Assembly: GCA_044224295.1 (NCBI GenBank)
Contig: JBGAKQ010000003.1
Span: forward strand, 81,498-145,497
Length of the DNA stretch: 64,000 nt
Reading direction: 5' to 3'
Source of the DNA: Lacunisphaera sp.
Lineage (GTDB): Bacteria > Verrucomicrobiota > Verrucomicrobiia > Opitutales > Opitutaceae
Shown: positions 34,568 through 51,191 of the stretch, piece after piece
Numbering within the stretch: position 1 is the stretch's first letter
Layout: each line of letters opens with the position of its first letter
Notes under the pieces: model-generated
What the model saw: the letters and a program-made list of their open reading frames with translations, nothing else
What the model was told of the DNA's origin: nothing
The model's database searches: none
Position numbers and translations under genes: made by a program

Positions 34568-35260
34568 TCAATACCCCGCTTCCTTCAGCGCCGCCAGGAT
34601 GCGGCGTTCGCCGCCGCCAATGTGCCGGGCCATCAACTTTTCGGCCTGCGCGGCGTCTCGCTTGCGGATTGCCTCAACCACCTTGATGTGCTCCTGCGTC
34701 GATTCCTCCGCGTCGATGCCGACGTCCAGACCCAGGAAACACGGCCGCTGGTGTCGCTCGAGGACGGTCGCGACGAGGCTTTCCAGCTGGCTGTTCCGCG
34801 CGCACCGGGCGATCTCCACGTGAAAACGATTATTCGCAAGCAGGTACGCGCGGTAGCTCTTGTGGTCACCGAGCGTGTACGAGAGCGTGGAAAGCTCCGA
34901 CAGTCGATTGACGTCCTCGGGGGTGGCGCGTTCCGCCGCCAAGGCCGCGACGGCGGGTTCGATCATCCGGCGCACCTCGCATAGATCCTGGAAGCTGCGG
35001 GCCGTCAGCGGGGCGACGGTGTAGCCGCGAAACGGACTCGCCATCACCAGGTTCTCGTTGGCCAGGCGGTTGAGCGCCTCGCGGATCGGCGTGCGCGAAA
35101 CGCCCAGCTGCGCGCAGAGCTCGGCCTCGATCAAGCGGTCGTCGGGTTTGAGGAGGCAGGTGAGGATGCTGTGCTTGAGCTCAGCGTAGACGCGGTCCGG
35201 CAGTACGCTCCCACCTGTGCGATTGCCATTGCTCGTTTCGGGCGCAGAAGCGGTTTTCAT
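34568..35260 (-). CDS. GntR family transcriptional regulator, FadR subfamily (FCD ligand domain)
   Basis: The ATG at 35260. Winged HTH LIEAELCAQLGVSRTPIREALNRLANENLV, then an FCD-like helical domain (EVRRMIEPAVAALAAERATPEDV ... FHVEIARCARNSQL ... EHIKVVEAIRKRD). Confidence 0.9.
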   Translation of the reverse strand: MKTASAPETSNGNRTGGSVLPDRVYAELKHSILTCLLKPDDRLIEAELCAQLGVSRTPIREALNRLANENLVMASPFRGYTVAPLTARSFQDLCEVRRMIEPAVAALAAERATPEDVNRLSELSTLSYTLGDHKSYRAYLLANNRFHVEIARCARNSQLESLVATVLERHQRPCFLGLDVGIDAEESTQEHIKVVEAIRKRDAAQAEKLMARHIGGGERRILAALKEAGY

Positions 35261-35335: not shown

Positions 35336-36814
35336 TTACCGGATGAACAACCCGGTAAGGTAGATATACCAGCCGCCCAGGAGCACGCAAACGCCGGCAT
35401 GGAGCATGGCGGAGTTCCGCCACCGCCACAGCAGCCAGCAGAGCGGGGCCGTCACGGGAAAAGCAATGAGCGCCAGCGTGACCGGTTTGACCAGCCAGTG
35501 TTCCGCCAGGCGGTGGGTAAAGGCCCAGTTGTTGGCGTCCTTGGCCACCACGGCGTAGGCCAGGGTGAGGGTGGCTACGCCGATCACGGGGCCGATCCAC
35601 CGGACCGCCGGGGAGGCGGAGGCGGCCGGTTGCGCGGAGGGCCGCGCCGGTTGCGCGGCGTGGGCGCGGCGGCGCCACCACATCCAGGCGCCACTCAGCG
35701 CGAGGAAACTCGGCGTCATGCCGAGGATGAACCAAATGACTTTGGTGAAGAGGCCGCCGAAATAACCGAAATGAATCGGATCGAAAGCCCAGTAGATCCG
35801 GTTCCAACCGGTGTCCTCTCGGCCGTCGACCTTGCTGAGCACGTCACCGGTCACCGGGTCGAGCCGCAGGGAATTGCGCCGGCGCACATGGCTTTGGGCC
35901 ACCAGCATGCTGGGCACGTCGCCGGTCATGACCGCGGGTGTGCCGGCCTTCGCGGGAATGGTCATCGTGCGCACGGTGAAATCGGGAAACGCCGCGCGGG
36001 CGCGCGCCAGCAATTCGTTGGCGCCGAGCACCGGACCCGTCGCGAGGCGCTTGGCCGCTTGCCCGGGTTTCTCGGTCATCTCGCCGCCTTCGGCGGAATC
36101 GGCCGGCGCCGTGGCGGCCGAAGGGGAACTGAACCACTTCTTCTCGATGCGGACATACGCGCCCTCCAGGCCGAAGACCGCGCCGGTGAATCCAATCATC
36201 AGGTTGAACACGAGCGACCACACCCCGATGAACTTGTGCAACTCGGCCCAGGGCGGCCGGGTGCCCCAGCTGCCTTTCAGCCGCAATTGGAAGAGTTTCT
36301 TGATCCAGCCGCGGTAGATCCAGAGGCCCGTCGCGCAGGACAGCATCAGCGTCACGCCGAACACCCCGACGAACATGCGGCCCCACGCGCCCATCAGCAG
36401 GCGAACGTGCGACTGGCGGATGAATTGGTAGATCGTGCTGGTATAACCTCCGCCGGGAGCGCGCTCACCAGTGACCGCCCCGGTGGCGGGATCGACGTAC
36501 GCCGTCACGCCGCGACTTTTCCCATTGGGCTGCCGGACCGACAGGGCCGCTTCATGCGCGAAGTGCGGGCGCACTGAAAATTCGAGGCGGTTGATCCGGG
36601 CACCCGGGTACTGCGCTTGGAGGCTGGCGATGATGGCCTCCGCGTCGACGCGTTTGCCGTCGGCCGCGGGTTCGACGCGCATGCCGGGCGTCACCATCCA
36701 TTCAATTTCCGGAGCGAAAACGGCCACCGCGCCGGTGAACCCAATAAGGAACAGGAAGAGGCCGGTGAGCAATCCCAGCCAAACGTGCCAGCGAAAGACG
36801 GTTTTCAGGGTCAT
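35336..36814 (-). CDS. PepSY-associated TM-helix protein (PiuB/FoxB-like putative ferric-siderophore reductase)
   Basis: The start is trimmed to the ATG at 36814, giving MTLKTVFRWHVWLGLLTGLFLFLIGFTGAVAVF. There are repeated TM helices with conserved His (LHKFIGVWSL, DPIHFGYFGG). The longer ORF to 37345 overlaps the receptor gene. Confidence 0.8.
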   Translation of the reverse strand: MTLKTVFRWHVWLGLLTGLFLFLIGFTGAVAVFAPEIEWMVTPGMRVEPAADGKRVDAEAIIASLQAQYPGARINRLEFSVRPHFAHEAALSVRQPNGKSRGVTAYVDPATGAVTGERAPGGGYTSTIYQFIRQSHVRLLMGAWGRMFVGVFGVTLMLSCATGLWIYRGWIKKLFQLRLKGSWGTRPPWAELHKFIGVWSLVFNLMIGFTGAVFGLEGAYVRIEKKWFSSPSAATAPADSAEGGEMTEKPGQAAKRLATGPVLGANELLARARAAFPDFTVRTMTIPAKAGTPAVMTGDVPSMLVAQSHVRRRNSLRLDPVTGDVLSKVDGREDTGWNRIYWAFDPIHFGYFGGLFTKVIWFILGMTPSFLALSGAWMWWRRRAHAAQPARPSAQPAASASPAVRWIGPVIGVATLTLAYAVVAKDANNWAFTHRLAEHWLVKPVTLALIAFPVTAPLCWLLWRWRNSAMLHAGVCVLLGGWYIYLTGLFIR

Positions 36815-36882
36815 TGGGGCGGGGGAACGCGGGCGTTCATGAACAGGCGCCACCCCGGAAAGGGTGGCGCCCGGAGGGAGAG

Positions 36883-38982
36883 TTAGAAGCGGTAGTTTGC
36901 CGTGCCGGTGAAGGTGCGCGGATTTCCGGGGAAGTTGCCGTCGGAAGTGAACACGCTCTTCACGTAGTGGTTGTCGAGGAGGTTTTCGCACCGCAGGGTG
37001 AGGCGGAGCTTCTTCCAGCGATAGTACGCGGAGGCGTTGTAGACGATATACTCCGGTCCCGGGAAATTGCCCGCGCCGGAGAAGTTCGGGCGCTCGCCGA
37101 CATAGCTGCCCCCCAAGCTGAAGCCGAGCTTGGTGTCGGGAATGTTGTAGCGCGCGAAAAAGCCGGCCTTGTGATGGGGCGCGTTGGGGAAGCGGCTGCC
37201 AGGCGGGGTGGCGGCGAGGACGCTGCGCGTGACCATGGCATTGTTGTAGGCGTACGTGGCGACGACGCTCAAATCCTTCGTGACCTGGCCGGTGACGTCG
37301 AACTCGAAGCCCTTGCTCGTGACGTCGCCGATCGGGGCCAGCCAAGTGGACGGGGCGCCGGGCGTCGGGTCACGCTCGAGGATGTTCGTCTTCATGATCT
37401 TGTAGGCGGTGGTCGTGATGCCCAGGCGCTTGTTGAAGAGATCCAACTTGAAGCCGCCCTCCCAGGAATTGCTTTCCTGCGGGGGAAAGGGTCCGTTGCG
37501 GTCCTCGCTGCCCAGTGATTGGGGCACCAGGCCCATGGAGTAGCTGATGAAGGCGGCGATATCGGGGCGGATCATATAAACCGCGCCTCCGCGGTAGGTG
37601 AGCACCGAGTCATCGAATTGGTCGACCGTCGGGCGGGAGCGGCTGTCGTCGTAATTTTCGAGGCGCAGGCCGGCGAGCAGGTGAACCTTGTCCTTGATGT
37701 TGATCTGGTCCTGCAGGTAGTAGCCCAGGCGTTTCTTCACGGTATCCGTCGGCACCACGCCGTCGAGGGAGAGGTTATACATCGACCCGCTGCTCAGACC
37801 GTAGACCGGATTGTAGACGTTGATGGCCACGACCTGGGCTTGGGGAATGGTCTTCGTGGTGAAGACGCGGTTCGCATAGGAGAATTCCGCGCCGGTGAGG
37901 ATCTTGTGCTTCGCGCGGAGGAACTCGAGGTCGGCCACGCCGTTCACTGCCCACGAGTACTCTTCCATCGCGCGAAGCTGGATGCGGAATTCGCGCGGCC
38001 AGAGTCCGGTGGTGGGGTTGAAGGTGTTGGTCTCGTGATATGCCTGGTCGGCGTCGCTCTGGAAATAGCGCGCGTAGGCATTCACATGCACGTTCTGCGA
38101 GATATTGTGGTCGAGCTGGACGCTGTAGACGGTCGTGGCCAGGTTCTGGTAGTCGGTGGCCTCGGCGCCGTTGAAGCTGATGTCGGTGGCCCAGCCGGTC
38201 GCGAGGTAGGGGATGCCGCGGAGACGGGCACCGTTCTGGTCGTTCTTGATGTACTCGATCCCGGCGGTGGCGCGGGTCGACTTGCCGGCGACCCACGTGA
38301 AGCTGAAGTTCGCGTTGGTCGACTCCTGGTGGTAGTTGGCGCGGAAGCTATCGCGCTCATAGTAGTTGGCGCTGGCGAGATACAGGAAGCGTTTCTTCGC
38401 GTCCAGGGGGCCGGTGACGCTCGCGTTGCCGCCGATCAGTCCGTACTCGCCGAAACGCGTGCCGATGGAGGCGTCGAATTCAGCGCGCGGCTTGGCCGTC
38501 ACGATGTTGATCAGGCCGCCCGGCTCGTTGTCGCCGTACAGCAACCCGACGGGGCCCTTGAGCAGTTCCACCTGCTGCACGTTATCCAGCGTGGCCACGC
38601 CGAATTCATTGTAGGGGCTGCCGGCAATGCCGTTGTAGCGCGTCTGCTCCTGACGGAAGCCGCGGGCACTGACGCCACCGTAGCTAAATTCCGTGACGGC
38701 GCCCATCAGCGGGTACAAGTCCGTGATGTCGGTGGCGCCCATGTCCTCGATCAGGTCCTTGGTGATGACCTGAATGTTCTGAGGTATATTAATGAGTGGC
38801 GTGTCGGTCTTGGTGCCCGTGATCGCGGTCGCGCTCTTGTAAGCGGAGTCCTGCCGGTCGGTCACTTTGAACTTATCCAGTTCAAGGACCTTCTTGTCGT
38901 CGAGTTTTTCCGGCGCCTCGTCGGCGGCGGACATAGCGGTGGCGAGCACCGCGGACATCATGAGCGCATGGATCGTCTTCAT
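36883..38982 (-). CDS. TonB-dependent siderophore-type receptor (FhuA/FhuE-like)
   Basis: Signal peptide, then the plug TGTKTDTPLINIPQNIQVITKDLIEDMGATDITD...GVSARGF...VELLKGPVGLLYG. A 22-strand-size barrel ends in NYRF. Confidence 0.9.
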   Translation of the reverse strand: MKTIHALMMSAVLATAMSAADEAPEKLDDKKVLELDKFKVTDRQDSAYKSATAITGTKTDTPLINIPQNIQVITKDLIEDMGATDITDLYPLMGAVTEFSYGGVSARGFRQEQTRYNGIAGSPYNEFGVATLDNVQQVELLKGPVGLLYGDNEPGGLINIVTAKPRAEFDASIGTRFGEYGLIGGNASVTGPLDAKKRFLYLASANYYERDSFRANYHQESTNANFSFTWVAGKSTRATAGIEYIKNDQNGARLRGIPYLATGWATDISFNGAEATDYQNLATTVYSVQLDHNISQNVHVNAYARYFQSDADQAYHETNTFNPTTGLWPREFRIQLRAMEEYSWAVNGVADLEFLRAKHKILTGAEFSYANRVFTTKTIPQAQVVAINVYNPVYGLSSGSMYNLSLDGVVPTDTVKKRLGYYLQDQINIKDKVHLLAGLRLENYDDSRSRPTVDQFDDSVLTYRGGAVYMIRPDIAAFISYSMGLVPQSLGSEDRNGPFPPQESNSWEGGFKLDLFNKRLGITTTAYKIMKTNILERDPTPGAPSTWLAPIGDVTSKGFEFDVTGQVTKDLSVVATYAYNNAMVTRSVLAATPPGSRFPNAPHHKAGFFARYNIPDTKLGFSLGGSYVGERPNFSGAGNFPGPEYIVYNASAYYRWKKLRLTLRCENLLDNHYVKSVFTSDGNFPGNPRTFTGTANYRF

Positions 38983-39054
38983 GGGAAGTAGCGAGAGGTT
39001 GTTTGCCCGGTGAACGGGACGTGACTAGCAGCCGAAATGCCAGCGGCAAGCCTT

Positions 39055-39065
39055 ATTGTATACGA
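39055..39065. promoter_or_regulatory. Candidate GntR operator ATTGTATACGA (site 1; ~75 nt upstream of the siderophore-type receptor start)
   Basis: The 11-mer is identical to 51277-51287. It contains the palindrome GTATAC and is an AT-rich island in a GC-rich intergenic region. Confidence 0.4.
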
Positions 39066-39264
39066 AATCGAAGAAGCGCCCGAAAAACCCGGGCGAGCCA
39101 GGCGGCGTTAGGCCTGCTGTATTTGAGGACGTCGGGAAAGGACATGGCCGATAAAGTTCGTGTTTTTCACTCTCACGAGCGTGTAAGCGGAATGCGCGCA
39201 CGCGGTGCCTGCCGGCAGGGCGCGGGCTCGAAAAACGGAGGTCGGTATTCTTTTGGGGTTGCCT

Positions 39265-39275
39265 ATCGTATACAC
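39265..39275. promoter_or_regulatory. Candidate GntR operator (site 2; reverse strand reads GTGTATACGAT; ~100 nt upstream of the OM-channel operon)
   Basis: Shares the 9-mer TGTATACGA with sites 1 and 4. Confidence 0.35.
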
Positions 39276-39372
39276 TCTGCCTTTCAAAACGAGAGTCCCG
39301 TATGAAACCTGCTTCGATTCTTTCAGGCGCCGGAGTTGCCGGCTGGGCCACGACGCTGGGAGGGGTTTCGCG

Positions 39373-40104
39373 ATGAAGCGCGCTCGGCACAAGCTCCTGC
39401 TAGCGTCGCTCCTCCTCTGGGCCGCCCCGTGGTTGCTCGCCCGTCCGCTGGACACGGACGACACAGGCACCGTCGCGAAGGGGCAGTGGGAAATGGAGGG
39501 CGGGCTGGATTTCACCCGCGCAGCGGGAGCCAATTCGTGGGCGTATACGCCGGTGTTGGCGTACGGGCTTACCGATCGCCTTCAAGTCGAGCTTGGCTGC
39601 GACTACTTGGTGGAGCACGGTGACGTGGACGAGGCCGCTGCGCACGGACTGGATCCATTGCTTCAACTTAAGAGTCGCTGCTGGAGCACGGCCGACGGTC
39701 GCTTCAGTCTCGCTCTCGCTGGAAACCTCGGCTGGCCGGCTCGCCTGCGCGGGCCCCGCGAGGGCTGGGAGCGGCACGGCGAGGTGCGGTTGCTGGCCAC
39801 GCAAGAATTCGGCGAGGCCGCTCTCGATTTTAATGCAGGCTATGAATTCACCGGTGCGTGGGGCGGTGGGGATGACGCTGGGCTCGTGAGTGCCGGCTTT
39901 CGTCGCCCCGTGACCTCAACGCTCGGCTGGGTCGGTGAAGTGTTCGCGACGTTTCCGCGGCAGGCTTCCATGCAGACCCTGGTGGCGACCGGCCTGACGG
40001 TCCAAGGGCGAGGCGGCTGGACCTTTGATGCGTTGGTGGGCTGCGGCGTCGGGACTGAAAGTCCGGACGTTCGATTTGTACTCGGATTTGTTCGTGCCCT
40101 CTGA
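39373..40104 (+). CDS. Putative outer-membrane beta-barrel channel (MetA/phenol-degradation-pathway transporter-like)
   Basis: The ATG at 39373 gives the signal peptide MKRARHKLLLASLLLWAAPWLLA. LDTDDTGTVAKGQWEMEGGLDF and alternating beta-strand-like segments follow. The family assignment is from memory only. Confidence 0.45.
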   Translation: MKRARHKLLLASLLLWAAPWLLARPLDTDDTGTVAKGQWEMEGGLDFTRAAGANSWAYTPVLAYGLTDRLQVELGCDYLVEHGDVDEAAAHGLDPLLQLKSRCWSTADGRFSLALAGNLGWPARLRGPREGWERHGEVRLLATQEFGEAALDFNAGYEFTGAWGGGDDAGLVSAGFRRPVTSTLGWVGEVFATFPRQASMQTLVATGLTVQGRGGWTFDALVGCGVGTESPDVRFVLGFVRAL

Positions 40105-40109
40105 TCGCG

Positions 40110-41402
40110 ATGACCCTTCCTGCCGCACTCTCCGAGCAACTCGTCCGCTGGCGGCGGGATTTTCATGCGCACCCCGAACTCGGCTTTTGCGAATATCGGA
40201 CCGCCGCGAAGGTTTGTGGCGTGCTGACCGGGCTGTCGGGCTGCACCGTGCGGGTGGGGCGTGAGGTCATGGATCCGGCGGCCTGCGTGGGAATGCCACC
40301 GGCGTCAGAAATCGCGGCGGCGCGCGCCGAAGCGCTTTCGTTGGGCGCCGACCGCGCGTGGGTCGAGCGGATGGGGGACGGGCTCACGGGCGTGGTGGCG
40401 GAGTGGGATTTCTCCCGGCCCGGACCGACGGTGGTTTTCCGCGCGGATCTGGACGCCTTGCCCGTCACGGAATCCACTGCCGCGACGCACCGGCCCGCCT
40501 GCGAAGGATTCGCGTCAAAACATATCGGTCGGATGCACGCGTGTGGGCACGATGGAAACACCGCCGTGGCGCTTGGCCTCGCCGCGATGGTCGCCGAAAA
40601 GAGCGCAGGGTGGGGCGGCCGCCTGCGCATTGTCTTTCAACCGGCGGAAGAAGGTTGCCGCGGCGGCCCGTCGATGATCGCGGCCGGGGTTGTCCGCGAT
40701 GCGGATTATTTCGTCGCCAGCCACCTAGGTACTTCGGCCAAGGAGGCCGGCCTGGTGAGCTGCAGTGTGCGCGGCTGGCTGGCGACGACCAAGCTCGACG
40801 TGGTCCTGCACGGGAAGGCGGCTCATGCGGGCCTCGCTCCGCAGGAAGGGCGCAACGCATTGCTGGCGGCGGCAACCATCGTGGTCCAGTTGCACGCGCT
40901 ACCGCGGCATGCGGACGGCGCATCCCGCGTCAACGTCGGTGTGCTCAAGGCCGGCACCGGGCGCAACATCATCGCCGATCGCGCGGAACTCAAACTCGAG
41001 GTGCGCGGCGCGACCACCGCGATCAATGACTTCATGACCGCGGAGGCCAGACGCATCATCGCGGCGGCGGCGGAAATGCACGGCGTACGAGCGGAGGTTT
41101 CGGTGGCCGGCGTCGCGCAGGGCGGCGCCTGCGACGCAAAGCTGCAGCCGATCGTCCGCGCGGCCGCCCTCGATGTGCCGGCGACCCGCCGGGTGGTGGA
41201 TTGGCTCGAGACCAGCGGGAGCGAAGACGCCACCTTCTTCATCAACGCCGTGCAGGCTCGCGGGGGATCGGCGACGTACGTGCTGGTTGGCACGCCCCTG
41301 GCCGCGGGTCACCACGAACCGGATTTCGATTTTGATGAAACCGCCTTGGCGCATGCCGTGGCCGTGCACACGGGCATCGCCGACCGGCTGCTGCGTCCCT
41401 GA
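40110..41402 (+). CDS. M20D-family amidohydrolase (aminoacylase / hippurate-hydrolase-like)
   Basis: WRRDFHAHPELGFCEYRTA, the MHACGHDGNTAV metal-binding motif, FQPAEEG. 430 aa. Confidence 0.85.
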   Translation: MTLPAALSEQLVRWRRDFHAHPELGFCEYRTAAKVCGVLTGLSGCTVRVGREVMDPAACVGMPPASEIAAARAEALSLGADRAWVERMGDGLTGVVAEWDFSRPGPTVVFRADLDALPVTESTAATHRPACEGFASKHIGRMHACGHDGNTAVALGLAAMVAEKSAGWGGRLRIVFQPAEEGCRGGPSMIAAGVVRDADYFVASHLGTSAKEAGLVSCSVRGWLATTKLDVVLHGKAAHAGLAPQEGRNALLAAATIVVQLHALPRHADGASRVNVGVLKAGTGRNIIADRAELKLEVRGATTAINDFMTAEARRIIAAAAEMHGVRAEVSVAGVAQGGACDAKLQPIVRAAALDVPATRRVVDWLETSGSEDATFFINAVQARGGSATYVLVGTPLAAGHHEPDFDFDETALAHAVAVHTGIADRLLRP

Positions 41403-41413
41403 AATTTTTCCCC

Positions 41414-42382
41414 ATGTCCACCTCGTCTGCTCCCGCCCAACTTCTTACCTTGGCCAGCATTCGCGCGGCGCGCCTCCGCATCGCCCCGCACATCCGGCGC
41501 ACGCCGGTCCTCACCAATGAGGCCCTCGATGCTGAAATCGGGCGACGGTTGTACTTCAAATGCGAGAATTTCCAGACCGTGGGCGTCTTCAAAGCGCGCG
41601 GGGCGGCCAATGCGGTGCTGAATCTCAGTGATGCCGACGCCGCGCGAGGCGTGGCCACGCATTCTTCGGGCAACCACGCGGCTGCGCTCGCACGGGCGGC
41701 CCGGCTGCGCGGTATTCCCGCGTACATCGTGATGCCGTCCAATTCACCGCGCTCGAAGGTCAAGAACGTGGAGCGCTACGGCGGCCAGATCACCTTTTGC
41801 GAACCGACGCCGGAGGCGCGCACCCAGACCTGCGCACGGATCGTCGCGGAAACGGGCGCCGCATTTGTCCATCCCTATGAGAATTTCGACGTGATGGCCG
41901 GGCAGGGGACGGCAGCGCTCGAACTGCTCGAGGATGTGCCGGAACTCGATCGCTTGCTTTGCCCGGTTGGCGGCGGCGGCCTGCTCGCCGGCACGGCCGT
42001 GGCGGCGAAAGGCGTGCGGCCGTCCATCAAGGTCATCGCCGTCGAGCCCGCGCAGGCGGACGACGCCTATCATTCCTTCCAAGCCGGCCGATTGGTGCGC
42101 CGGCCGACCGACACCATCGCCGACGGGCTTCGGACCGTCGTGGGCGAACCGAATCTCGAGATCATGCGCGAGGTGGTGGACGAAATCGTCACCGTCAGCG
42201 AGGCGAGCATCGTCACCGCCATGCGGCGCCTCTGGGAGGAACTCAAAATCGTCGTCGAGCCTTCCGGCGCGGTTCCTTTCGCGGCGGTCCTTGAGGGCAA
42301 AATTCCCGCCGATAGCCGGCCCACCGGAATCATCCTCAGCGGCGGCAACGTCGATCTGGACCGTCTGCCCTGGCAAAAATAA
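41414..42382 (+). CDS. PLP-dependent threonine/serine dehydratase-family enzyme (serine racemase / 3-hydroxyaspartate ammonia-lyase-like)
   Basis: FKCENFQTVGVFKARGAANAV (PLP lysine context), HSSGNHAAALARAA, CPVGGGGLLAG. 322 aa with no ACT regulatory domain. Confidence 0.85.
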   Translation: MSTSSAPAQLLTLASIRAARLRIAPHIRRTPVLTNEALDAEIGRRLYFKCENFQTVGVFKARGAANAVLNLSDADAARGVATHSSGNHAAALARAARLRGIPAYIVMPSNSPRSKVKNVERYGGQITFCEPTPEARTQTCARIVAETGAAFVHPYENFDVMAGQGTAALELLEDVPELDRLLCPVGGGGLLAGTAVAAKGVRPSIKVIAVEPAQADDAYHSFQAGRLVRRPTDTIADGLRTVVGEPNLEIMREVVDEIVTVSEASIVTAMRRLWEELKIVVEPSGAVPFAAVLEGKIPADSRPTGIILSGGNVDLDRLPWQK

Positions 42383-42430
42383 CCGGCCACATTCGCACAG
42401 CTTCAATCACTCTTTCGTACCTGATCCCCT

Positions 42431-43960
42431 ATGACCTCTGAAACTCGATTCCTCCGCCAGACTTGGCTTAACCGGTCCCTCTGGGCCGTCGTTGGTTCCT
42501 GCCTCCTCCTCGCCTCTCCGTCGCTGCCGGCGGCGCAGATCAAAAGCGAAACCCGGACAATCGCGCTGCCCGATGGTACGTCGGTTGAATATGAATTGGG
42601 TACGCTCCAAGTCCCGGAGAACCGGCAGAACCCCACTAGCCGGACCATCTCGGTGGGCTTCGCGCGTTTTCGCGGGATGACGGCCACCGGCGCTCCGCCC
42701 ACGATTCATCTTCCCGGCGGTCCAGGGAATTCCTACGTGAGCGCCATGCACCTCGACGCCAAGGATGCCGCCGCCCGCAAACTCAACGAGCGTCAGGCTG
42801 CGGACCTCCAGCGCTATCGTCAGGTGGGCGATGTGATCTACTTTGATCAACGCGGCTGCAGCGAACTCGGCGAAAGACTTGTGTTCGCGTACGACATCCC
42901 CGCTAAACCACTGGATCAGCCCGGCAGCATGGCCCGGGAGACCGCGGAATTCGTCGAGGCTTCCAAGGCCGCACTTGCCGACGCGGCCAAGCGTGGCATC
43001 GACGTGCGGGGCTACACCATCCGCGACTGTGCGGAAGACGTGAATGATCTGCGTCGCGAGCTCGGATACGAACGCATCACGCTCATCGGGCAAAGTTTCG
43101 GCTCGCAGTGGAGCTTCGCCATCATGCGCCTGCATCCGGGCATCGTCGCCCGCGCCGTGCTGTCCGGTGTCGAGCCACTCGATTGCGGTTACGACATGCC
43201 GGCCAACGTCTACACCGCGATGCGCAAGATGTGGCAGGCCGTCGAGCGTGACCCCGCGTTCCAACCCTATTTGCCACGCGGCGGCATCGCCGGGGCGGTG
43301 GTGGAAATTGTGCGTCGCTTGGAAAAGGGCCCGGTGCAGGTCAAGGTCACGGAGAAGTCTGGTGAAACGAAGACGGTCGTGCTCGGTCGCGAAGATTTCC
43401 GTCCGGAAACTCCCGCCGAAATCCTCGCGATCTATCATGGCCACTACGAGGGATGGGCGAAAGAGGTGCTGGCGCGTCGCCGGGCCCACAAGGGTCGCAT
43501 CGATCCGTTGATCGGGCCGCTGATCGACACCGGCCTGGCGGTAACCCCGGCGCGTCGCAACCTCCTGCGCACCGACCCGGCCATCGCCTTGCTTGGCGAA
43601 TGGAATTTCGACGACTACATGGCCACCGAGGAAATCTGGCCCACGGAAGACGTGGGTGATGAATTCCGGCTCGAAGTACGCAACCACCTGCCGGTGCTTT
43701 TCGTGCACGGCGACTGGGACCTCAACACGCCGCGCGAAAATCTGCTGCACGTGCTGCCGTATTTCACCAACAGCCGCACCGTGTTGGTGCATCAAGGTCA
43801 GCACAGCGCGTTCGCGCGCGTGCGCGAGACGCTGCCCGAGGCCACCGCCGCCATTATGGATTTCGTTCGCAATGGCTCGACCGACAACCTGCCGGTTGAG
43901 GTGACCGTGCCGGCGCCGAAATTCGTCGCCCCGGATTTCCCGGCGCCGGCCAAGCCTTAA
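42431..43960 (+). CDS. Secreted alpha/beta-hydrolase, S33-like (prolyl/tripeptidyl aminopeptidase-like)
   Basis: Signal peptide. HLPGGPGNSY oxyanion region, the nucleophile elbow LIGQSFGSQW, and C-terminal HGDWDLNTP ... QGQH. Confidence 0.7.
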   Translation: MTSETRFLRQTWLNRSLWAVVGSCLLLASPSLPAAQIKSETRTIALPDGTSVEYELGTLQVPENRQNPTSRTISVGFARFRGMTATGAPPTIHLPGGPGNSYVSAMHLDAKDAAARKLNERQAADLQRYRQVGDVIYFDQRGCSELGERLVFAYDIPAKPLDQPGSMARETAEFVEASKAALADAAKRGIDVRGYTIRDCAEDVNDLRRELGYERITLIGQSFGSQWSFAIMRLHPGIVARAVLSGVEPLDCGYDMPANVYTAMRKMWQAVERDPAFQPYLPRGGIAGAVVEIVRRLEKGPVQVKVTEKSGETKTVVLGREDFRPETPAEILAIYHGHYEGWAKEVLARRRAHKGRIDPLIGPLIDTGLAVTPARRNLLRTDPAIALLGEWNFDDYMATEEIWPTEDVGDEFRLEVRNHLPVLFVHGDWDLNTPRENLLHVLPYFTNSRTVLVHQGQHSAFARVRETLPEATAAIMDFVRNGSTDNLPVEVTVPAPKFVAPDFPAPAKP

Positions 43961-44009
43961 GGGCGCACGGCTGGCCGTGACCCCTCAGCAACCCGAACCG
44001 AATCACTCC

Positions 44010-46013
44010 ATGAAGAAACTGGTGTTCCTCTTTTTGTGTGCGGCGGGCTTGCTGCCGCGGTCCGCTTCGGCGGCCGAATTGACCCCCGAACTCATCGTCG
44101 ATCTCAAGATGGTGCAGGACGTGCGTTTGTCCGCGGACGGCAAATGGGTGGCCTATCTTGTCGAGGGCGAGGGCGACGGCGGTGGCAAGAGCAAGAAACT
44201 GTGGGTGGCCAGCACCGAAGGTGCCCTGTCCCAGCGACGGCTGCTCCCCGATCGCAACCAAGTATCCGTGGCGCGGTGGGCGCCGGACGGCCGGCTCGCG
44301 GTCGTGGCCCAAAGCGAGACCGCGCCGCGACGCCGACAGCTGCTGTTGATAGAAGCGTCCGGCGGGGAACCGCGCGTGCTCGTGGATAAATTTGCGGGCG
44401 CTTCCCTCGAATGGTCACCCGATGGCCGCCAGCTGGGCTTTCTCCAATCGGATGCGGCGGCGCCGGCCCGCAAACGCAGCGCGGGTGAACCGCTGGTTTA
44501 CACCCGTGAGCAGGAACCCGAGACTGCGGTGGATCGCTTGTACACCCTCGACGTGGCCACGGGCATGACGCAGGCGCGCACGCCTTCGACCCATAGCCTT
44601 ACCGATTTCGCCTGGTCGCCGCGGGGAGACGCCGTGGTGGCATTGGCTCGTCCGGTGAAGGACGGGTCACGGCGGGCTGTAACGATTTTCGCGCTGTCAG
44701 GAAATGACCGGCCGCGCGAATTATGGACGCCCTCGGACCAAACGAATGCGCTGTCGTGGTCTCCGGACGGCAAGACGATTGCGTGGACCGGGCGCGAGTT
44801 CACGCCGGGCAGCGGACAGTTGGTGGTGATGAATGCGGCCGGCGATCCCGCGGTGCGCACGGTGCAGGCGAATTTTCCCGGTTCGATTCACCACATGATG
44901 TTCCGGGCCGACGGTCGGCTGGCCTTTGGCGCCCAGGTGAATCTCCGCATCGGAATTTATTCGGTCGCGGCGGACGGTTCGGATTTGCGTGAGGACCATC
45001 CTGCCGCCTCCTTCGCTCCCGGCTCGCTCGGGGCCGGATCGCTCGGCGGATTCACGATTTCGTTTAGTGCCGACGGGTCGCGGGTGGCGAGTGCCGTTTC
45101 CGGACCGCGGGAATATGCCAACGTCATCGCCGGCCCGTGGAGGGGCACGCTTACGCGCCGCACCGCGCTTAACCCTGAGGTCGCGGACGTACCGCTGGCT
45201 ACGGTGGACGAGATTTCTTGGAACTCATTCGATGGGCTTGAGGTGTACGGTTTCCTCGTGAAGCCCGCGGGCTTCAATTCCGCAAAGAAATATCCAATGG
45301 TGGTCCTGCCACATGGCGGGCCGCGTCGTTCCTGGTGGGCGACATGCGTGCTGGAAGATTGGAGCGGCTGGCTCGCGAACCAGGGCTATGTCGTGCTGAT
45401 GCCGAATCCGCGCGGCAGCGAAGGGCGTGGAGCTGACTTCGTGCGCGCCAACCGCATGGACTTGGGCGGCGGCGACTGGCGAGATATCGTGGCGGGTCTG
45501 GACCACGTCCTCACGTTAGGCTTCGTCGATCCCGACCGGCTCGCGATCACGGGCTGGAGTTATGGCGGCTATTTGACGGCGTGGGGTATTACGCAACCGG
45601 AGGGTAGGAGATTCAAGGCAGCGGTGATCGGCGCCGGCATTACGAACCGCCTGTCCAAGGGCGGCGCGGCGGGCAGTTGGTCGGATGTTCATTACGGCGA
45701 CCCGCAGGCGATTTGGCGGAATACGCAGGAATTCTTTTATCGTTCACCCCTCGCGCATGTCAGCCGGGTCACGGCACCGACGCTGATCGTGCACGGCGAT
45801 AACGACTCCAAGGTCGCCCACAACCAGGCGTTGGATTTTTTCAACGGGCTCAAGGCGCTAGGTGTGCCCACGGAGGCTCGGATTTATCCGGGCGAAGGCC
45901 ACAACTTCAGCCAGCGAGACCACCGGATCGATTTGTTGAACAGCATCGCCCGGTGGCTGCGCACCTATGTGCCGGCTGATGCGCCGCGCATTGCGCAAAC
46001 CGCCCAGCAGTGA
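44010..46013 (+). CDS. S9-family serine peptidase (prolyl oligopeptidase / dipeptidyl-peptidase-like), secreted, paralog 1
   Basis: The ATG at 44010 gives MKKLVFLFLCAAGLLP. An N-terminal beta-propeller-like region (SADGKWVAY, SPDGRQLGF, SPDGKTIAW) is followed by GWSYGGYL (Ser nucleophile), HGDNDSKV (Asp) and GEGHNF (His). Confidence 0.85.
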   Translation: MKKLVFLFLCAAGLLPRSASAAELTPELIVDLKMVQDVRLSADGKWVAYLVEGEGDGGGKSKKLWVASTEGALSQRRLLPDRNQVSVARWAPDGRLAVVAQSETAPRRRQLLLIEASGGEPRVLVDKFAGASLEWSPDGRQLGFLQSDAAAPARKRSAGEPLVYTREQEPETAVDRLYTLDVATGMTQARTPSTHSLTDFAWSPRGDAVVALARPVKDGSRRAVTIFALSGNDRPRELWTPSDQTNALSWSPDGKTIAWTGREFTPGSGQLVVMNAAGDPAVRTVQANFPGSIHHMMFRADGRLAFGAQVNLRIGIYSVAADGSDLREDHPAASFAPGSLGAGSLGGFTISFSADGSRVASAVSGPREYANVIAGPWRGTLTRRTALNPEVADVPLATVDEISWNSFDGLEVYGFLVKPAGFNSAKKYPMVVLPHGGPRRSWWATCVLEDWSGWLANQGYVVLMPNPRGSEGRGADFVRANRMDLGGGDWRDIVAGLDHVLTLGFVDPDRLAITGWSYGGYLTAWGITQPEGRRFKAAVIGAGITNRLSKGGAAGSWSDVHYGDPQAIWRNTQEFFYRSPLAHVSRVTAPTLIVHGDNDSKVAHNQALDFFNGLKALGVPTEARIYPGEGHNFSQRDHRIDLLNSIARWLRTYVPADAPRIAQTAQQ

Positions 46014-46081
46014 TTTCGTTTTCGTAGGGCGTCCATGGGGCGCCCAAGGGCAGCGTCCGCTCCCGGAACCCCTGAAATACC

Positions 46082-48079
46082 ATGAAAACCATTGCGCCAC
46101 TCCTCGCGTTGGCAGCGTGCTGCCTATCCGTTTGCGCCAGCTTCGGAGCGGATCTGACCGCGGAATTCCTGGCTGACCTCAAGACCGTGGGTGGGGTGCG
46201 GTTGTCACCCGACGGCAAATGGGTCACCTACGTGGTGGAAGGCGAATCCCGCGAAGCCGGCAAGACAAAGGAATTGTGGCTGGCCAGCGTGGACGGGAAA
46301 CCCAGTCAGCGGCGCCTGCTGCCTGGACGGAAAAACGTGTCGGAGGCCCGGTGGTCCGCCAGCGGCCGCCTGGCGGTGGTGACGGCTGCGGAGATCGAGC
46401 CTCACCGCCAATTGTTGCTGGTGGATTTGGGAACCGAGGCCGTGCAGGTGCTCGTCGACCGGTTCGAAGGCTCTTCGATCGAATGGTCGTCAGACGGCCG
46501 GCAAATTGGATTCATCCAGACCGAAAGCATCGTGCCGGCCCGCAAGCGTAGCGCCAGCGAACCGCTGGTGCTCGACGCCACGCGCGCCGCCAGCGGCAGC
46601 GTGAGTCGGTTTTTCACACTGGATGTCGAGACGAAAGTCCAGCAAGTCCGGACCCCGCCCAGTCACTCCGTCACCAAGTTTGGCTGGAGCCCGCAAGGTG
46701 ATGCCATCGTGGCGCTGGCGCGCAGCGTGAACGATGGGCGGGGGACCATGATCACAGTGTTTCCTTTCGCGGAGGGTGCCGCGCCGCGCGAACTCTGGCA
46801 TCCGCATGATCAAACGCTGACGCTTGCCTGGTCGCCTGACGGCAAGGTGATTGCTTGGTGCGGGCGGGAACTGACTCCGCAAAGCGGACAATTGGTGTTG
46901 CTACAGGCCAACGGTGATCCGCGCCCGCGCACCGTGCAGGCAGATTTTCCGGGCAGCCTGCACCACATCGCTTTTCGGGCGGACGGCCGACTGGCCTTCG
47001 GCGCACTGGAGAACCTACGGGCCGGCATTTATTCCGTTGCGGCGGACGGTTCCGACCTGCGCGCGGATCATCCCGCTTCCTCTTTCGCCCCGGGATCATT
47101 GGGGGTCGGTTCCTTCGCGTATTTCGCGCTCTCTTTCAGCGCTGACGGCTCGCGGGTCGCGACCACGGTGTCCGGGCCGGGAGAGCCGGCCAACGTGATC
47201 GCCGGACCGTGGCGGGGAAACTTGACGCGCCGCACCGACCTCAATCCGGCCGTCTCGGAACTGTCGTTGGGCGCGGTGGAGGACGTCTCCTGGCGGTCCT
47301 TCGACCAATTGGAGATCCATGGTTTTGTGATCAAACCGCCGGGGTTCGACCCCGCGAAAAAATACCCGCTGGTGGTTCTCACGCACGGTGGGCCGCGTCG
47401 CTCCTGGTGGGCAAACGGATTCTTGGATGATTGGTGGGGCCAGTGGATCGCGCACCAAGGTTACATGGTGTTCCTCCCTAATCCGCGCGGCAGTGAAGGT
47501 CGCGGGGCGGATTTTGTGCGTGCGAATTACCGCGACCTCGGTGGCGGCGACTGGCGGGACGTGGTGACGGGCCTGGACCATGTGCTCACGCTGGGGAATG
47601 CCGATCCCGAGCGCCTAGGCTTGGCCGGCTGGAGCTATGGTGGCTTTCTGGCGGCTTGGGGGCTCACGCAGCCCGAGGGACGGCGATTCAAGGTTGGCAT
47701 TGTCGGCGCGGGCATCACCAACCGCCTGGCGGGTGGAGCCGCCGCGAGTGGCTGGTCGGAGGATCACTATGGTGACCCGCAGCTGATCTGGCGTCATCCT
47801 ATGGAGCACTTCTACCGTTCGCCGATCGCCCATGTGGGGTGCGTCTCGGCCCCAACGTTGATCCTCCACGGCGACAACGACACGACGGTGCCCCACGGCC
47901 AATCGATGGATTTCTACAATGGGCTGCGCGCTATGGGCGTGCCCACGGAGGCGCGGATCTATCCCGGTGCCGGGCACGCCTTCACCCGCCGCGATCAGAA
48001 AATTGATCTGTTCAACAGCATTGCGCGTTGGCTGCGGACGTACCTCCCGGCTGGCGCACCGCGCGCCGGACAAAAGTGA
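46082..48079 (+). CDS. S9-family serine peptidase, secreted, tandem paralog 2
   Basis: Colinear with paralog 1 and identical at most aligned positions by eye. GWSYGGFL, HGDNDTTV, GAGHAF. Confidence 0.85.
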   Translation: MKTIAPLLALAACCLSVCASFGADLTAEFLADLKTVGGVRLSPDGKWVTYVVEGESREAGKTKELWLASVDGKPSQRRLLPGRKNVSEARWSASGRLAVVTAAEIEPHRQLLLVDLGTEAVQVLVDRFEGSSIEWSSDGRQIGFIQTESIVPARKRSASEPLVLDATRAASGSVSRFFTLDVETKVQQVRTPPSHSVTKFGWSPQGDAIVALARSVNDGRGTMITVFPFAEGAAPRELWHPHDQTLTLAWSPDGKVIAWCGRELTPQSGQLVLLQANGDPRPRTVQADFPGSLHHIAFRADGRLAFGALENLRAGIYSVAADGSDLRADHPASSFAPGSLGVGSFAYFALSFSADGSRVATTVSGPGEPANVIAGPWRGNLTRRTDLNPAVSELSLGAVEDVSWRSFDQLEIHGFVIKPPGFDPAKKYPLVVLTHGGPRRSWWANGFLDDWWGQWIAHQGYMVFLPNPRGSEGRGADFVRANYRDLGGGDWRDVVTGLDHVLTLGNADPERLGLAGWSYGGFLAAWGLTQPEGRRFKVGIVGAGITNRLAGGAAASGWSEDHYGDPQLIWRHPMEHFYRSPIAHVGCVSAPTLILHGDNDTTVPHGQSMDFYNGLRAMGVPTEARIYPGAGHAFTRRDQKIDLFNSIARWLRTYLPAGAPRAGQK

Positions 48080-48364: not shown

Positions 48365-49381
48365 TCAGCCCCAGAAGGGGAATTTATCTCCGCGTCCCGA
48401 TTGGAGCGCCTTCTGATAAACCAAGGCGGCGGCGGCGACGTCTTGCAGGGCGGTGCCGGTGGCGTCGTAGATGATGATTTCCTGGTCGTCCTTGCGGCGC
48501 GGCGCTTGGCCGATGATCACCTGCCCGAGCTCGCCGCGCACATCGGACGCCTTCATGAGGCCGGCGTCGATTGCGTGGTGAAGGTCGCCGACATGTTCAC
48601 ACTGCGCCGTGAGGTCGGTGACGACCGAGTTCGCGGCGAGAAATTCCGGTTCCATCTCCTGCTTGTCCGGGCTGTCCGCCCCGACGGCAGCCACGAAGGT
48701 GCCCGGCGAAATCATGTCGCGTCCGATGATCCAGCGGCGGGCGGGAGTGCACGTCACCACAATGTCGCTGGAGCGAGTCGCGGCGCGAAGATCGGGTGCG
48801 GCTCGGACCGGCAGCCCGAGCTTGCGCGCCTGGATGCCCGCGAACTCGGCGGCCTTGTCGGCATTCAAATCCCAGACGTGGACGCTCTTGATCGGGCGGA
48901 CCTTCGTAATGGCCTCGAGCTGGATCGCTCCTTGAATTCCGCCGCCGATGATGGTCAACGTGCTCGCATTCGTTTTGGCGAGATAGCGCGCGGCCACGGC
49001 GGTGGTGGCGCCGGTGCGCTTGATGGTGATTTCAGCAGACTCCATCACCGCCAGCGGCTGGCCGGTGCTGGCATCGTAGAGCAGGATCAGGCCTTGGATA
49101 TTGGGCAGGCCGTTGCGCGCGCGATTCTGGAAGAACCCGCCGTTCACCTTGCAGGCGTAGACGGGCTTGGGTGTGCGCAAGCCGCCGGCCTTGATGTGGA
49201 ATTCGCCGTCGATCCCATCGCCATGGAGAAGGCCTGGCCCGAGCGTTTCCCCGCGCGCATGGGCGCCGAAGCATTCCTCGGCCGCGGCGATGCATTCCTC
49301 CACCGTGAGCAGCTCGGCGATCGTCCTGCGATCGAGGAGGAGGGCGGGGGGAGTGGTTCTGAGTTGGATCGGGTCAGGCAT
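48365..49381 (-). CDS. Ornithine cyclodeaminase / mu-crystallin family protein
   Basis: The ATG at 49381 gives MPDPIQLRTTPPALLLDRRTIAELLTVEECI. Also HIKAGG, LILLYDASTGQPLAVM, TIIGGGIQG (Rossmann), IIYDATGTALQDV. Confidence 0.85.
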   Translation of the reverse strand: MPDPIQLRTTPPALLLDRRTIAELLTVEECIAAAEECFGAHARGETLGPGLLHGDGIDGEFHIKAGGLRTPKPVYACKVNGGFFQNRARNGLPNIQGLILLYDASTGQPLAVMESAEITIKRTGATTAVAARYLAKTNASTLTIIGGGIQGAIQLEAITKVRPIKSVHVWDLNADKAAEFAGIQARKLGLPVRAAPDLRAATRSSDIVVTCTPARRWIIGRDMISPGTFVAAVGADSPDKQEMEPEFLAANSVVTDLTAQCEHVGDLHHAIDAGLMKASDVRGELGQVIIGQAPRRKDDQEIIIYDATGTALQDVAAAALVYQKALQSGRGDKFPFWG

Positions 49382-49400
49382 GGTTGAAGATGGAAATGTT

Positions 49401-51158: not shown

Positions 51159-51180
51159 GGGAAAGGAACAGGTTCCAATA

Positions 51181-51191
51181 TAGTATACAAT
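51181..51191. promoter_or_regulatory. Candidate GntR operator (site 3; reverse strand reads ATTGTATACTA; ~25 nt upstream of the D-aminoacylase start)
   Basis: Shares ATTGTATAC with sites 1 and 4. Confidence 0.35.

What the first reader, a model, noticed from the sequence alone, without database searches (positions are those of the whole stretch)
39055..39275. Paired ATTGTATACGA-type sites in the receptor / OM-channel divergent promoter region
The 390-bp spacer between the siderophore-type receptor (minus) and the OM-channel operon (plus) carries two AT-rich sites. ATTGTATACGA is at 39055-39065. The inverted ATCGTATACAC (reverse strand GTGTATACGAT) is at 39265-39275. Each lies 75-100 nt from one of the two start codons.

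The core GTATAC is a palindrome of the GT..AC type used by FadR-subfamily GntR regulators, and such a regulator is encoded at the end of the receptor operon. The 9-mer TGTATACGA recurs 12 kb away (next finding).

I saw no convincing Fur-box-like 19-bp AT palindrome here. That is unusual for a siderophore-type receptor.
Basis: seen in the sequence. Interest (0 to 1): 0.65.

Follow-up and report, generated by a model that had tools for sequence, protein, structure and literature searches.

The report
GntR repressor operators of a peptide-uptake regulon
The two AT-rich sites are real, conserved binding sites, most likely for the GntR-type regulator encoded next door, which switches a peptide-uptake and breakdown gene cluster on and off; this is an ordinary kind of switch in a little-studied bacterial group.

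Summary
ATTGTATACGA (39055-65) and ATCGTATACAC (39265-75) lie in the 390-bp divergent spacer. TGTATACGA occurs 3 times in the window against 0.03 expected.

The window comes from an Opitutaceae (Verrucomicrobiota) genome assembled from a sludge or bioreactor metagenome. In six related loci (three further lineages, regulator 73-88% identical) the same two sites are the main invariant blocks of an otherwise diverged spacer.

A weight matrix trained only on the other genomes ranks four window sites far above all else. Two are in the spacer examined here. Two are in a second divergent spacer at 51.2 kb, which exists only in this genome because of a rearrangement.

The motif is a TATYGTATACRA-type palindrome. 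This is the GTATAC-core operator shown experimentally for FadR/FCD-subfamily GntR repressors (DipR, Atu1419). The local regulator (34571-35260, minus strand) has GntR and FCD domains.

Homologues at 52-61% identity in other contigs sit beside the same enzyme families and carry a related motif.

The best reading is effector-released repression of four transcription units, one of which includes the regulator gene. This is a new member of a known kind.

No Fur box was found.

The parts
39052..39069 (.). Operator site S1 (CTTATTGTATACGAAATC; core 39055-39066), next to the receptor operon
   Evidence: PWM score 24.1 with a matrix trained on other genomes only. TTGTATAC is invariant in 7 orthologous spacers.
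39262..39279 (.). Operator site S2 (CCTATCGTATACACTCTG; core 39264-39275), next to the plus-strand operon
   Evidence: PWM score 18.5. GTATACA is invariant in 7 orthologous spacers.
39258..39264 (+). Conserved extra half-site-like box (GTTGCCT here; ATTGCAT or ATTGTAT in relatives), 7 nt in front of the left half of S2
   Evidence: Invariant TTG at 39259-39261 in alignment A2. Extra boxes 7-12 nt from GntR sites are described in PMC4494728.
39046..39053 (.). Conserved GCAAGnCT block flanking S1 on the receptor side; role unknown (promoter element or operator extension)
   Evidence: Invariant columns in A2.
39027..39042 (-). Sigma-54-like -24/-12 element TGGCAT-N5-CTGCT pointing at the receptor gene, just downstream of S1 (tentative)
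   Evidence: It is the only match to TGGCAY-N5-YTGCW in the 64-kb window. The orthologous position has TGGCAC-N5-TTGCT in L001/L022 and TGGCAC-N5-CTGCT in L016, with variable spacers. It is absent in L019, L023 and L025.
51177..51194 (.). Operator site S4 (AATATAGTATACAATACG), centre 27 nt upstream of the amidohydrolase start codon
   Evidence: PWM score 21.1 with the matrix trained on other genomes.
51274..51291 (.). Operator site S3 (GTGATTGTATACGAGAAT), centre about 70 nt upstream of the POT transporter ATG (51352)
   Evidence: PWM score 16.0.
51224..51230 (+). Isolated extra half-site ATACGAG between S4 and S3
   Evidence: Read from the sequence. The same 7-mer also lies at 51190-51196 and inside S3.
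34568..35260 (-). GntR/FCD (FadR-subfamily) regulator, 230 aa; the proposed binder of the sites
   Evidence: Pfam FCD and GntR. A 230-aa form is in the protein collection. The recognition helix VSRTPxREAxNRL is invariant in 9 homologues.
35336..36880 (-). PepSY_TM membrane protein (start codon uncertain, near 36815)
   Evidence: Pfam PF03929, E 3.8e-61. Orthologues align from residue 23.
36883..38982 (-). TonB-dependent receptor, siderophore type; first gene of the minus-strand unit
   Evidence: Pfam Plug and barrel domains. TIGR01783 above its cutoff.
39302..39376 (+). 24-codon relic of an abgT-family transporter gene
   Evidence: Its N-terminus resembles that of the 508-aa AbgT gene at the same place in L001 and L022.
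39373..48079 (+). Plus-strand unit: 12-strand outer-membrane barrel, M20 amidohydrolase, PLP dehydratase (BhcB-like), S33 hydrolase, and two S9 peptidases
   Evidence: The barrel fold resembles FapF and the COG4313 channel.
48365..51158 (-). Minus-strand unit: Amidohydro_3 enzyme, then an ornithine-cyclodeaminase-family enzyme
   Evidence: In relatives these genes lie inside the plus-strand operon.
51352..54371 (+). POT peptide transporter (51352-52737), followed by an MFS transporter

Best explanation
The two sites are operators of the locally encoded FadR/FCD-subfamily GntR regulator (230 aa, 34571-35260, minus strand).

Proposed mechanism:
- A dimer, or a tetramer as in Atu1419, binds each AT-rich palindrome of the type TATYGTATACRA.
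- One site sits at each promoter of the divergent pair. S1 serves the receptor-PepSY-gntR unit, which would make the regulator autoregulated. S2 serves the abgT relic, the outer-membrane barrel and the peptidase operon.
- Two more sites (S4, S3) do the same at the amidohydrolase/cyclodeaminase and POT transporter divergent pair 12 kb away.
- Without inducer the protein represses all four units.
- A small carboxylate effector, probably derived from the imported peptide-like substrate, binds the FCD domain and releases the protein.

What is shown:
- The sites exist, are far beyond chance, and are conserved.
- They track the transcription units.
- The regulator belongs to a subfamily whose members are proven to bind GTATAC-core palindromes.

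What is inferred:
- This particular protein binds these sites.
- It acts as a repressor.
- The identity of the effector.
- Any DNA looping between S1 and S2.
For: 1. Chance is excluded. The 9-mer occurs 3 times against 0.03 expected.

2. Phylogenetic footprint. In L001, L016, L019, L022, L023/L024 and L025 (regulator 73-88% identical) the orthologous spacer keeps both sites. Mean column identity of the spacer is only 56%. In L001, L016 and L019 these are the only GTATAC copies in the locus.

3. Independent prediction. A PWM trained only on non-window sites ranks S1, S4, S2 and S3 as the top four of 64 kb (24.1, 21.1, 18.5, 16.0). The next hit scores 9.8. The mean maximum of simulated sequence is 11.3; the single highest maximum among 50 simulations was 19.9.

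4. Sites follow transcription units.
- In relatives the cyclodeaminase and amidohydrolase genes lie inside the one long operon, and there is only one divergent spacer.
- In the window they form a separate divergent pair, which has its own two sites.
- In L023 and L025 a separately transcribed S9 peptidase has its own site 33 nt upstream of its start.

5. Regulator class. It has GntR and FCD domains, and R56/T57 of the recognition helix are invariant.

6. Literature on the subfamily.
- Its operators are AT-rich palindromes with TKGT/ACMA boxes and a 2- or 3-nt GT..AC gap (PMC4494728).
- DipR needs GTATAC, shown by EMSA and footprinting (PMC11472048).
- Atu1419 binds ATGTATACAT twice, 190 bp apart, in a divergent spacer (PMC7797058).
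- An Atu1419 structure (6z74) is among the regulator's PDB sequence hits (E 3.7e-13).

7. The motif travels with the regulator. Homologues 52-61% identical (L026-L030) sit beside PLP-dehydratase, S9, S33, M28, M19 and PepSY_TM genes. They carry ATATYGTATAYAATAT-like sites just upstream of the regulator gene or its operon. About 254 kb of control loci without the regulator have one hit of 14 or more.

8. Repression. S4 (27 nt), S2 (31-35 nt to the abgT or relic ATG) and the L023 S9 site (33 nt) are too close to start codons for an activator position.
Against: - No binding or expression data exist, and no usable RNA-seq run holds this locus.
- Transcription starts and promoters are unknown. The sigma-70 scan found none.
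- There are only about four independent lineages among the close orthologues.
- Position +1 of the palindrome is asymmetric (T on the left, mostly G on the right). The right half of S2 (ACAC) deviates from the palindrome yet is conserved.
- In the distant homologues the motif contains TATAAT, so it could in part be a -10 box.
- S1 lies upstream of a conserved sigma-54-like element, which is not a classical repressor position.
- ATTGTATACAAT is also the core of the B. subtilis OhrR (MarR-family) operator, so the sequence alone does not name the binding family.
Confidence: 0.72

Rival explanations
1. The sites are functional operators, but for a different transcription factor encoded elsewhere. 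Examples would be a MarR/OhrR-like protein or a global regulator of amino-acid and peptide catabolism. On this reading the local GntR protein binds something else.
For: ATTGTATACAAT is the core of the B. subtilis OhrR operator. No binding data exist. The own genome could not be scanned.
Against: The regulator gene lies inside the regulated divergent pair in every close orthologue. Homologues in other phyla-level lineages carry a related motif directly upstream of themselves. The motif fits proven FCD-GntR operators. No MarR gene was seen among the annotated genes of the 18-kb locus.
Confidence: 0.1
2. The conserved AT-rich blocks are core promoter elements (for example a TACAAT -10 box or an UP element) and not repressor sites.
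For: On the receptor-sense strand S1 reads TATACAAT. The distant homologues' motif contains TATAAT. Conservation extends beyond the palindrome.
Against: The motif is a two-fold palindrome that occurs in both orientations relative to the downstream gene. Its distance to start codons varies from 27 to about 100 nt. The sigma-70 scan found no promoter at these places. The same 9-11-mer at four unrelated promoters is not expected of -10 boxes.
Confidence: 0.08
3. The same GntR protein binds the sites but acts as an activator or dual regulator at the receptor promoter. There S1 lies about 45 nt upstream of the start predicted from a sigma-54-like element. S1 and S2 could alternatively act only together, through a tetramer-mediated DNA loop.
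For: A conserved TGGCAY-N5-YTGCT lies next to S1 in three lineages. Atu1419 loops two GTATAC palindromes 190 bp apart. The S1-S2 spacing is 203-210 bp in four lineages.
Against: No enhancer-binding protein motif (GAFTGA) is encoded in the window. The sigma-54-like element is absent in L019, L023 and L025. The spacing is 164 bp in L023/L025 and is not a constant number of helical turns. The pattern alone is expected 0.27 times per window.
Confidence: 0.08
4. The sites are a chance similarity, or the inverted ends of a small mobile element.
For: S1 and S2 are inverted copies of a 9-mer. The window is rich in palindromic repeat families (and the earlier notes).
Against: The count is 3 against 0.03 expected. 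The arms share only 9 nt. The DNA between them is not conserved, while the sites are invariant across lineages.
Confidence: 0.02

Closest known systems
Atu1419 of Agrobacterium fabrum (FCD/VanR-type GntR repressor of hydroxycinnamate degradation; PMC7797058; PDB 6z74)
   Same: Both have a GntR wHTH plus an FCD domain. Both operators have a TGTATACA core (Atu1419: ATGTATACAT). In both, two palindromes lie about 200 bp apart (190 against 210) in a roughly 370-390-bp divergent spacer that includes the regulator's own unit. The Arg-Thr pair of the recognition helix that reads the G of GTATAC in Atu1419 has a counterpart here in the invariant R56-T57 of the SRTP helix, matched by motif and not by an alignment. 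6z74 is a sequence hit of the regulator (E 3.7e-13).
   Different: The sequence relationship is only remote. The regulated genes differ (peptidases and transporters here, hydroxycinnamate enzymes there). The oligomeric state, looping and effector are unknown here. The palindrome here is longer and slightly asymmetric (TATYGTATACRA).
DipR of Alcaligenes faecalis (GntR/FadR repressor of dipicolinate catabolism; PMC11472048)
   Same: A GTATAC core is essential for binding. There is one site per transcription unit in a multi-unit cluster, including the regulator's own promoter. The number of sites changes with gene organisation between genomes. The protein is released by the pathway substrate.
   Different: The pathway and phylum differ. 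DipR binding was shown by EMSA and footprinting, whereas nothing has been shown experimentally here.
[quoted passage not shown] 2015 (PMC4494728)
   Same: All have AT-rich palindromes with TKGT/ACMA-type boxes and a 2-nt gap. They also show double-site divergent pairs with one site per operon, and weaker extra boxes 7-12 nt away.
   Different: No Verrucomicrobiota or Acidobacteriota regulators were in that data set. Here the box is TYGT (T or C), not TKGT.
Fur-controlled siderophore receptor promoters
   Same: The receptor is a siderophore-type TonB-dependent receptor followed by a PepSY_TM protein.
   Different: There is no Fur box (best 12/19). The promoter carries a substrate-type GntR operator and is co-regulated with peptidases.

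Membership tests
FadR/FCD-subfamily GntR regulator with its operator | Regulator has an N-terminal GntR winged helix-turn-helix and a C-terminal FCD domain | tested here: met
   Pfam PF00392 (E 2.5e-17) and PF07729 (E 6.6e-25). PDB hits are all GntR/FCD proteins.
FadR/FCD-subfamily GntR regulator with its operator | Operator is an AT-rich palindrome with a GT..AC core (2- or 3-nt gap) and T-K-G-T / A-C-M-A boxes | tested here: met
   The sites read T[T/C]GT-AT-AC[G/A/T][A/C]; the outer position is C in S2 only. The definition comes from PMC4494728. GTATAC cores are proven for DipR and Atu1419. The K position is T or C here, a minor departure.
FadR/FCD-subfamily GntR regulator with its operator | Sites lie in promoter regions of the regulator's own unit and of the adjacent catabolic and transport units | tested here: met
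   All four strong sites are in the two divergent spacers. None is in coding DNA of the window.
FadR/FCD-subfamily GntR regulator with its operator | Sites are conserved in orthologous promoters and co-occur with the regulator | tested here: met
   Seven orthologous spacers in about four lineages. A related motif lies next to 52-61% homologues. Control loci lack it.
FadR/FCD-subfamily GntR regulator with its operator | The protein physically binds the sites and is released by an effector | not testable with these tools
   This needs EMSA or footprinting and a ligand screen.
FadR/FCD-subfamily GntR regulator with its operator | The motif is rare genome-wide and enriched in intergenic DNA | not tested
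Only 64 kb of the own genome and about 600 kb of loci were scanned.
Fur-regulated siderophore receptor promoter | A 19-bp Fur box (GATAATGATAATCATTATC-like) in the promoter | tested here: not met
   The best match is 12/19, the same as the background elsewhere in the window. That stretch is not conserved in relatives. The E. coli consensus may not apply to this phylum.
Sigma-54-dependent promoter (for the receptor unit) | -24 GG and -12 GC elements at fixed spacing (TGGCAC-N5-TTGCW), plus an enhancer-binding activator | tested here: inconclusive
   The element is present and oriented correctly in the window, L001/L022 and L016, with variable spacers. It is lost in L019, L023 and L025. No GAFTGA protein is encoded in the window. 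Presence of rpoN could not be checked.
Miniature inverted-repeat mobile element | Long terminal inverted repeats flanking a conserved interior | tested here: not met
   The arms share only 9 nt. The interior is diverged between lineages while the sites are invariant.

The most novel reading that the evidence does not exclude
The operator defines a regulon shared across phyla (Opitutaceae, and Acidobacteriota-like lineages such as Vicinamibacteria). In it one conserved FCD-GntR family controls scavenging of peptide-like substrates. In Opitutaceae it has placed a siderophore-type TonB receptor and a PepSY_TM reductase-like protein under substrate control instead of iron (Fur) control. These sit alongside BhcB/BhcD-like beta-hydroxyaspartate enzymes, a D-aminoacylase-like amidohydrolase and several peptidases. 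That combination would suit uptake and complete catabolism of peptidic siderophores, or other peptides rich in D-amino acids or hydroxyaspartate, as food.
Probability: 0.2. Interest if true: 0.6.

Novelty: new member of a known kind. Interest (0 to 1): 0.3.

Why it matters
The result gives a concrete, testable cis-element and regulator pair in Verrucomicrobiota, a phylum with almost no characterised transcription factors. It also delimits a regulon: receptor, PepSY_TM protein, outer-membrane barrel, M20, S33 and S9 peptidases, a PLP dehydratase, a cyclodeaminase-family enzyme, an amidohydrolase and a POT transporter.

That regulon assigns a common, substrate-induced role to several poorly annotated genes. 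It shows that a siderophore-type receptor here is probably not iron-regulated.

In itself the element is a textbook FadR-type GntR operator.

Tried and rejected
- Sigma-70 promoter scans of both spacers found nothing. Hand searches for conserved -35 and -10 pairs around S1 and S2 gave no convincing or conserved promoter.
- RNA-seq: only three tiny metatranscriptomes from an unrelated sample of one study turned up, holding none of the words. No transcription starts could be obtained.
- The metagenome scan with the regulator gave only one close locus.
- Pfam and NCBIfam gave no family for the 243-aa protein, even at E = 10. Its identity rests on a predicted fold (pLDDT 75).
- The B. subtilis GntR operator sequence that I recalled could not be found in the paper library, so it is not used as evidence.
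- A mobile-element reading, a Fur-box reading and a chance reading were all rejected.
- Helical phasing of S1 and S2 was checked. Spacings of 210, 204, 203, 205, 207 and 164 bp are not a constant number of turns, so the spacing gives no evidence for obligatory looping.

Full report
**1. The observation**

The sequence shows ATTGTATACGA at 39055-39065 and ATCGTATACAC at 39265-39275 (reverse complement GTGTATACGAT). Both lie in the 390-bp spacer 38983-39372. That spacer separates a minus-strand TonB-dependent receptor (ATG at 38982) from a plus-strand gene starting at 39373.

The shared 9-mer TGTATACGA occurs three times in the window (39057, 39266 on the minus strand, 51279). The expectation is 0.03, and no shuffle out of 100 reached three.

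GTATAC occurs five times against 1.34 expected. Four copies are in two divergent spacers. The fifth (39543) is a GC-flanked copy inside a gene.

The window has 65% G+C, so these are the most AT-rich islands of the spacer.

**2. The surroundings**

Pfam and NCBIfam give four transcription units.
- Minus strand: a siderophore-type receptor (36883-38982; TIGR01783 at 270 bits, cutoff 223.5), a PepSY_TM protein, and a GntR+FCD regulator. The regulator's true form is 230 aa at 34571-35260.
- Plus strand: a 243-aa exported protein, an M20 amidohydrolase, a PLP dehydratase closest to BhcB / 3-hydroxyaspartate ammonia-lyase, an S33-type hydrolase, and two S9 peptidases.
- Minus strand: an Amidohydro_3 enzyme and an ornithine-cyclodeaminase-family enzyme (48365-51158).
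- Plus strand: a POT peptide transporter (ATG at 51352) and an MFS transporter.

The 243-aa protein has no family hit. It is predicted as a 12-strand beta-barrel (pLDDT 75) resembling FapF and the COG4313 outer-membrane channel (TM about 0.68). The label "OM channel" is therefore reasonable.

No terminator-like site separates the receptor, PepSY_TM and regulator genes. One follows the regulator gene.

**3. Origin and relatives**

The nearest genomes are Opitutaceae: a Lacunisphaera MAG (L001) and an Opitutaceae MAG (L016). The DNA itself is found in activated-sludge and bioreactor metagenomes.

Further orthologous loci came from a metagenome scan (L019) and from look-ups of regulator homologues (L022, L023/L024, L025).

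In all of them the receptor, PepSY_TM and regulator genes face the barrel-and-peptidase operon. In these relatives the cyclodeaminase-family and amidohydrolase genes lie inside that long operon. So the relatives have a single divergent spacer.

**4. Phylogenetic footprint**

In L001, L016 and L019 the only two GTATAC copies of the whole locus are the orthologues of S1 and S2. L022, L023 and L025 each carry one or two further copies.

In the seven-sequence alignment of the spacer (A2) mean column identity is 56%, with many gaps. Two blocks are invariant:
- GCAAGnCTnnTTGTATACnA (window 39046-39065)
- TTTnnGnTTGnnTnTnGTATACA (window 39252-39274)

The seven sequences represent about four independent lineages.

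**5. Independent prediction and regulon logic**

A symmetrised weight matrix built only from the nine sites of the other genomes was used to scan the window.
- The top four hits are S1 (24.1), S4 at 51177 (21.1), S2 (18.5) and S3 at 51274 (16.0).
- The next hit scores 9.8.
- The mean maximum over 50 simulated sequences is 11.3; the single highest maximum was 19.9.

S3 and S4 lie in the second divergent spacer. That spacer exists only in this genome, because the amidohydrolase and cyclodeaminase genes have been moved to the other strand.

Conversely, L023 and L025 have a separately transcribed S9 peptidase with its own site 33 nt upstream of its start. Sites therefore appear wherever a new transcription unit of this gene set is created. 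That is the behaviour of an operator of a local regulon.

**6. Who binds**

The consensus is TATATTGTATACAATATA. The core is T-Y-G-T-A-T-A-C-R-A.

Published comparative work on the FadR subfamily describes the following (PMC4494728):
- AT-rich palindromes with TKGT/ACMA boxes and a 3-nt or, in several groups, 2-nt GT..AC gap.
- Double-site divergent pairs in which each site serves its own operon.
- Weaker extra boxes 7-12 nt away.

All three features are seen here. The extra boxes are:
- ATTGCAT or ATTGTAT 7 nt before S2.
- ATACGAG half-sites in the 51.2-kb spacer.

Two FCD regulators are experimentally proven to need a GTATAC core:
- DipR, with six promoters, shown by EMSA and footprinting (PMC11472048).
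- Atu1419, whose operator is ATGTATACAT. It has two copies 190 bp apart in a 370-bp divergent spacer. It forms a tetramer, and DNA loops were seen by EM (PMC7797058).

An Atu1419 structure (6z74) is among the regulator's PDB hits. The Arg-Thr of the recognition helix that reads the G of GTATAC in Atu1419 has its counterpart in R56-T57 of the invariant helix VSRTPxREAxNRL; this match is by motif, not by an alignment to Atu1419.

**7. The motif travels with the regulator**

Homologues 52-61% identical come from other contigs (L026-L030). A homologue from the same identity band carries an NCBI Vicinamibacteria label. These homologues sit beside PLP dehydratase, S9, S33, M28 and M19 peptidases, aminotransferases and PepSY_TM genes.

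Each has an ATATYGTATAYAATAT-like sequence directly upstream of the regulator gene or its operon, and often more at neighbouring promoters.

About 254 kb of control loci without the regulator (L003-L015, L017) contain one hit of 14 or more.

Caveat: in these distant loci the motif contains TATAAT and could partly be a -10 box.

**8. Mechanism**

S4 is 27 nt from its start codon. S2 is 31-35 nt from the abgT or relic start. The L023 S9 site is 33 nt from its start. These positions must overlap the core promoter or the 5' leader, which argues for repression rather than activation.

S1 is 78-99 nt from the receptor start in four lineages and 65 nt in the fifth.

Just downstream of S1, on the receptor strand, lies TGGCAT-N5-CTGCT.
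- It is the only match to that sigma-54-type pattern in the window.
- It is conserved with variable spacers in L001/L022 and L016.
- It is absent in L019, L023 and L025.
- No enhancer-binding protein is encoded in the window.

I treat this element as tentative.

The effector is unknown. The gene content suggests a product of peptide, hydroxyaspartate or D-amino-acid breakdown.

**9. Fur**

The best Fur-box match in the spacer is 12/19, equal to the background, and it falls in a stretch that is not conserved. It is explained if the receptor is induced by substrate rather than controlled by iron.

**10. Limits**

- There is no experimental binding or expression evidence.
- Transcription starts are unknown.
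- Earlier AI notes from this scan describe similar GntR/GTATAC peptidase regulons in Acidobacteriota. I used them only as leads.

**Verdict**

This is a real, conserved, GTATAC-core operator set of a FadR/FCD-type GntR regulator. It is a new member of a known kind and of modest interest in itself.

Noticed in passing
window 39302-39376 (+): A 24-codon ORF (MKPASILSGAGVAGWATTLGGVSR) overlaps the barrel gene's ATG in an ATGA arrangement. Its N-terminus resembles that of the 508-aa AbgT-family transporter gene that occupies this position in L001 and L022. It is probably the relic of a deleted abgT gene.
   Followed up: partly
window 39027-39042 (-): A sigma-54-like element TGGCAT-N5-CTGCT points at the receptor gene. 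It is conserved with variable spacers in L001/L022 (TGGCAC-N5-TTGCT) and L016, and lost in L019, L023 and L025. No enhancer-binding protein gene is in the window.
   Followed up: partly
window 48365-51158 compared with L001, L016, L022, L023: In all relatives the cyclodeaminase-family and amidohydrolase genes sit inside the long peptidase operon. In the window they are on the opposite strand and form a new divergent pair with the POT transporter, complete with its own two operator sites.
   Followed up: yes
window 41414-42382 and 48365-49498: The PLP enzyme scores best against beta-hydroxyaspartate dehydratase BhcB (403 bits, below the 550 cutoff). The cyclodeaminase-family enzyme also hits iminosuccinate reductase BhcD (201 bits). 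Together with a siderophore-type receptor and a PepSY_TM protein, this hints at catabolism of peptides that contain hydroxyaspartate.
   Followed up: no
window 39373-40104 (+): The 243-aa exported protein has no Pfam or NCBIfam family. It is predicted as a 12-strand barrel similar to the amyloid-subunit exporter FapF and the COG4313 channel.
   Followed up: partly
window 30122, 54463, 55355, 55405: There are repeated copies of a palindromic element containing CGCCTGTAAACAGGCTCCTA.
   Followed up: no
window 39203-39217: A GC-rich near-palindrome GCCTGCCGGCAGGGC lies in the middle of the spacer. It is not conserved in the orthologous spacers.
   Followed up: no
L028 5934-8708; L026 10001-13991; L030 4354-8705: Distant homologues of the regulator (52-61% identity) are again linked to PLP dehydratase, S9 peptidase and, in L028, split PepSY_TM genes. 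The association of regulator, PALP and peptidases therefore extends beyond Opitutaceae.
   Followed up: partly
L001/L016/L019/L022, just inward of S1: A second small palindrome ACAAAnnTTTGT-like (for example cACAAATTTTGTg in L019) lies 5-6 nt from S1 in four relatives but not in the window.
   Followed up: no
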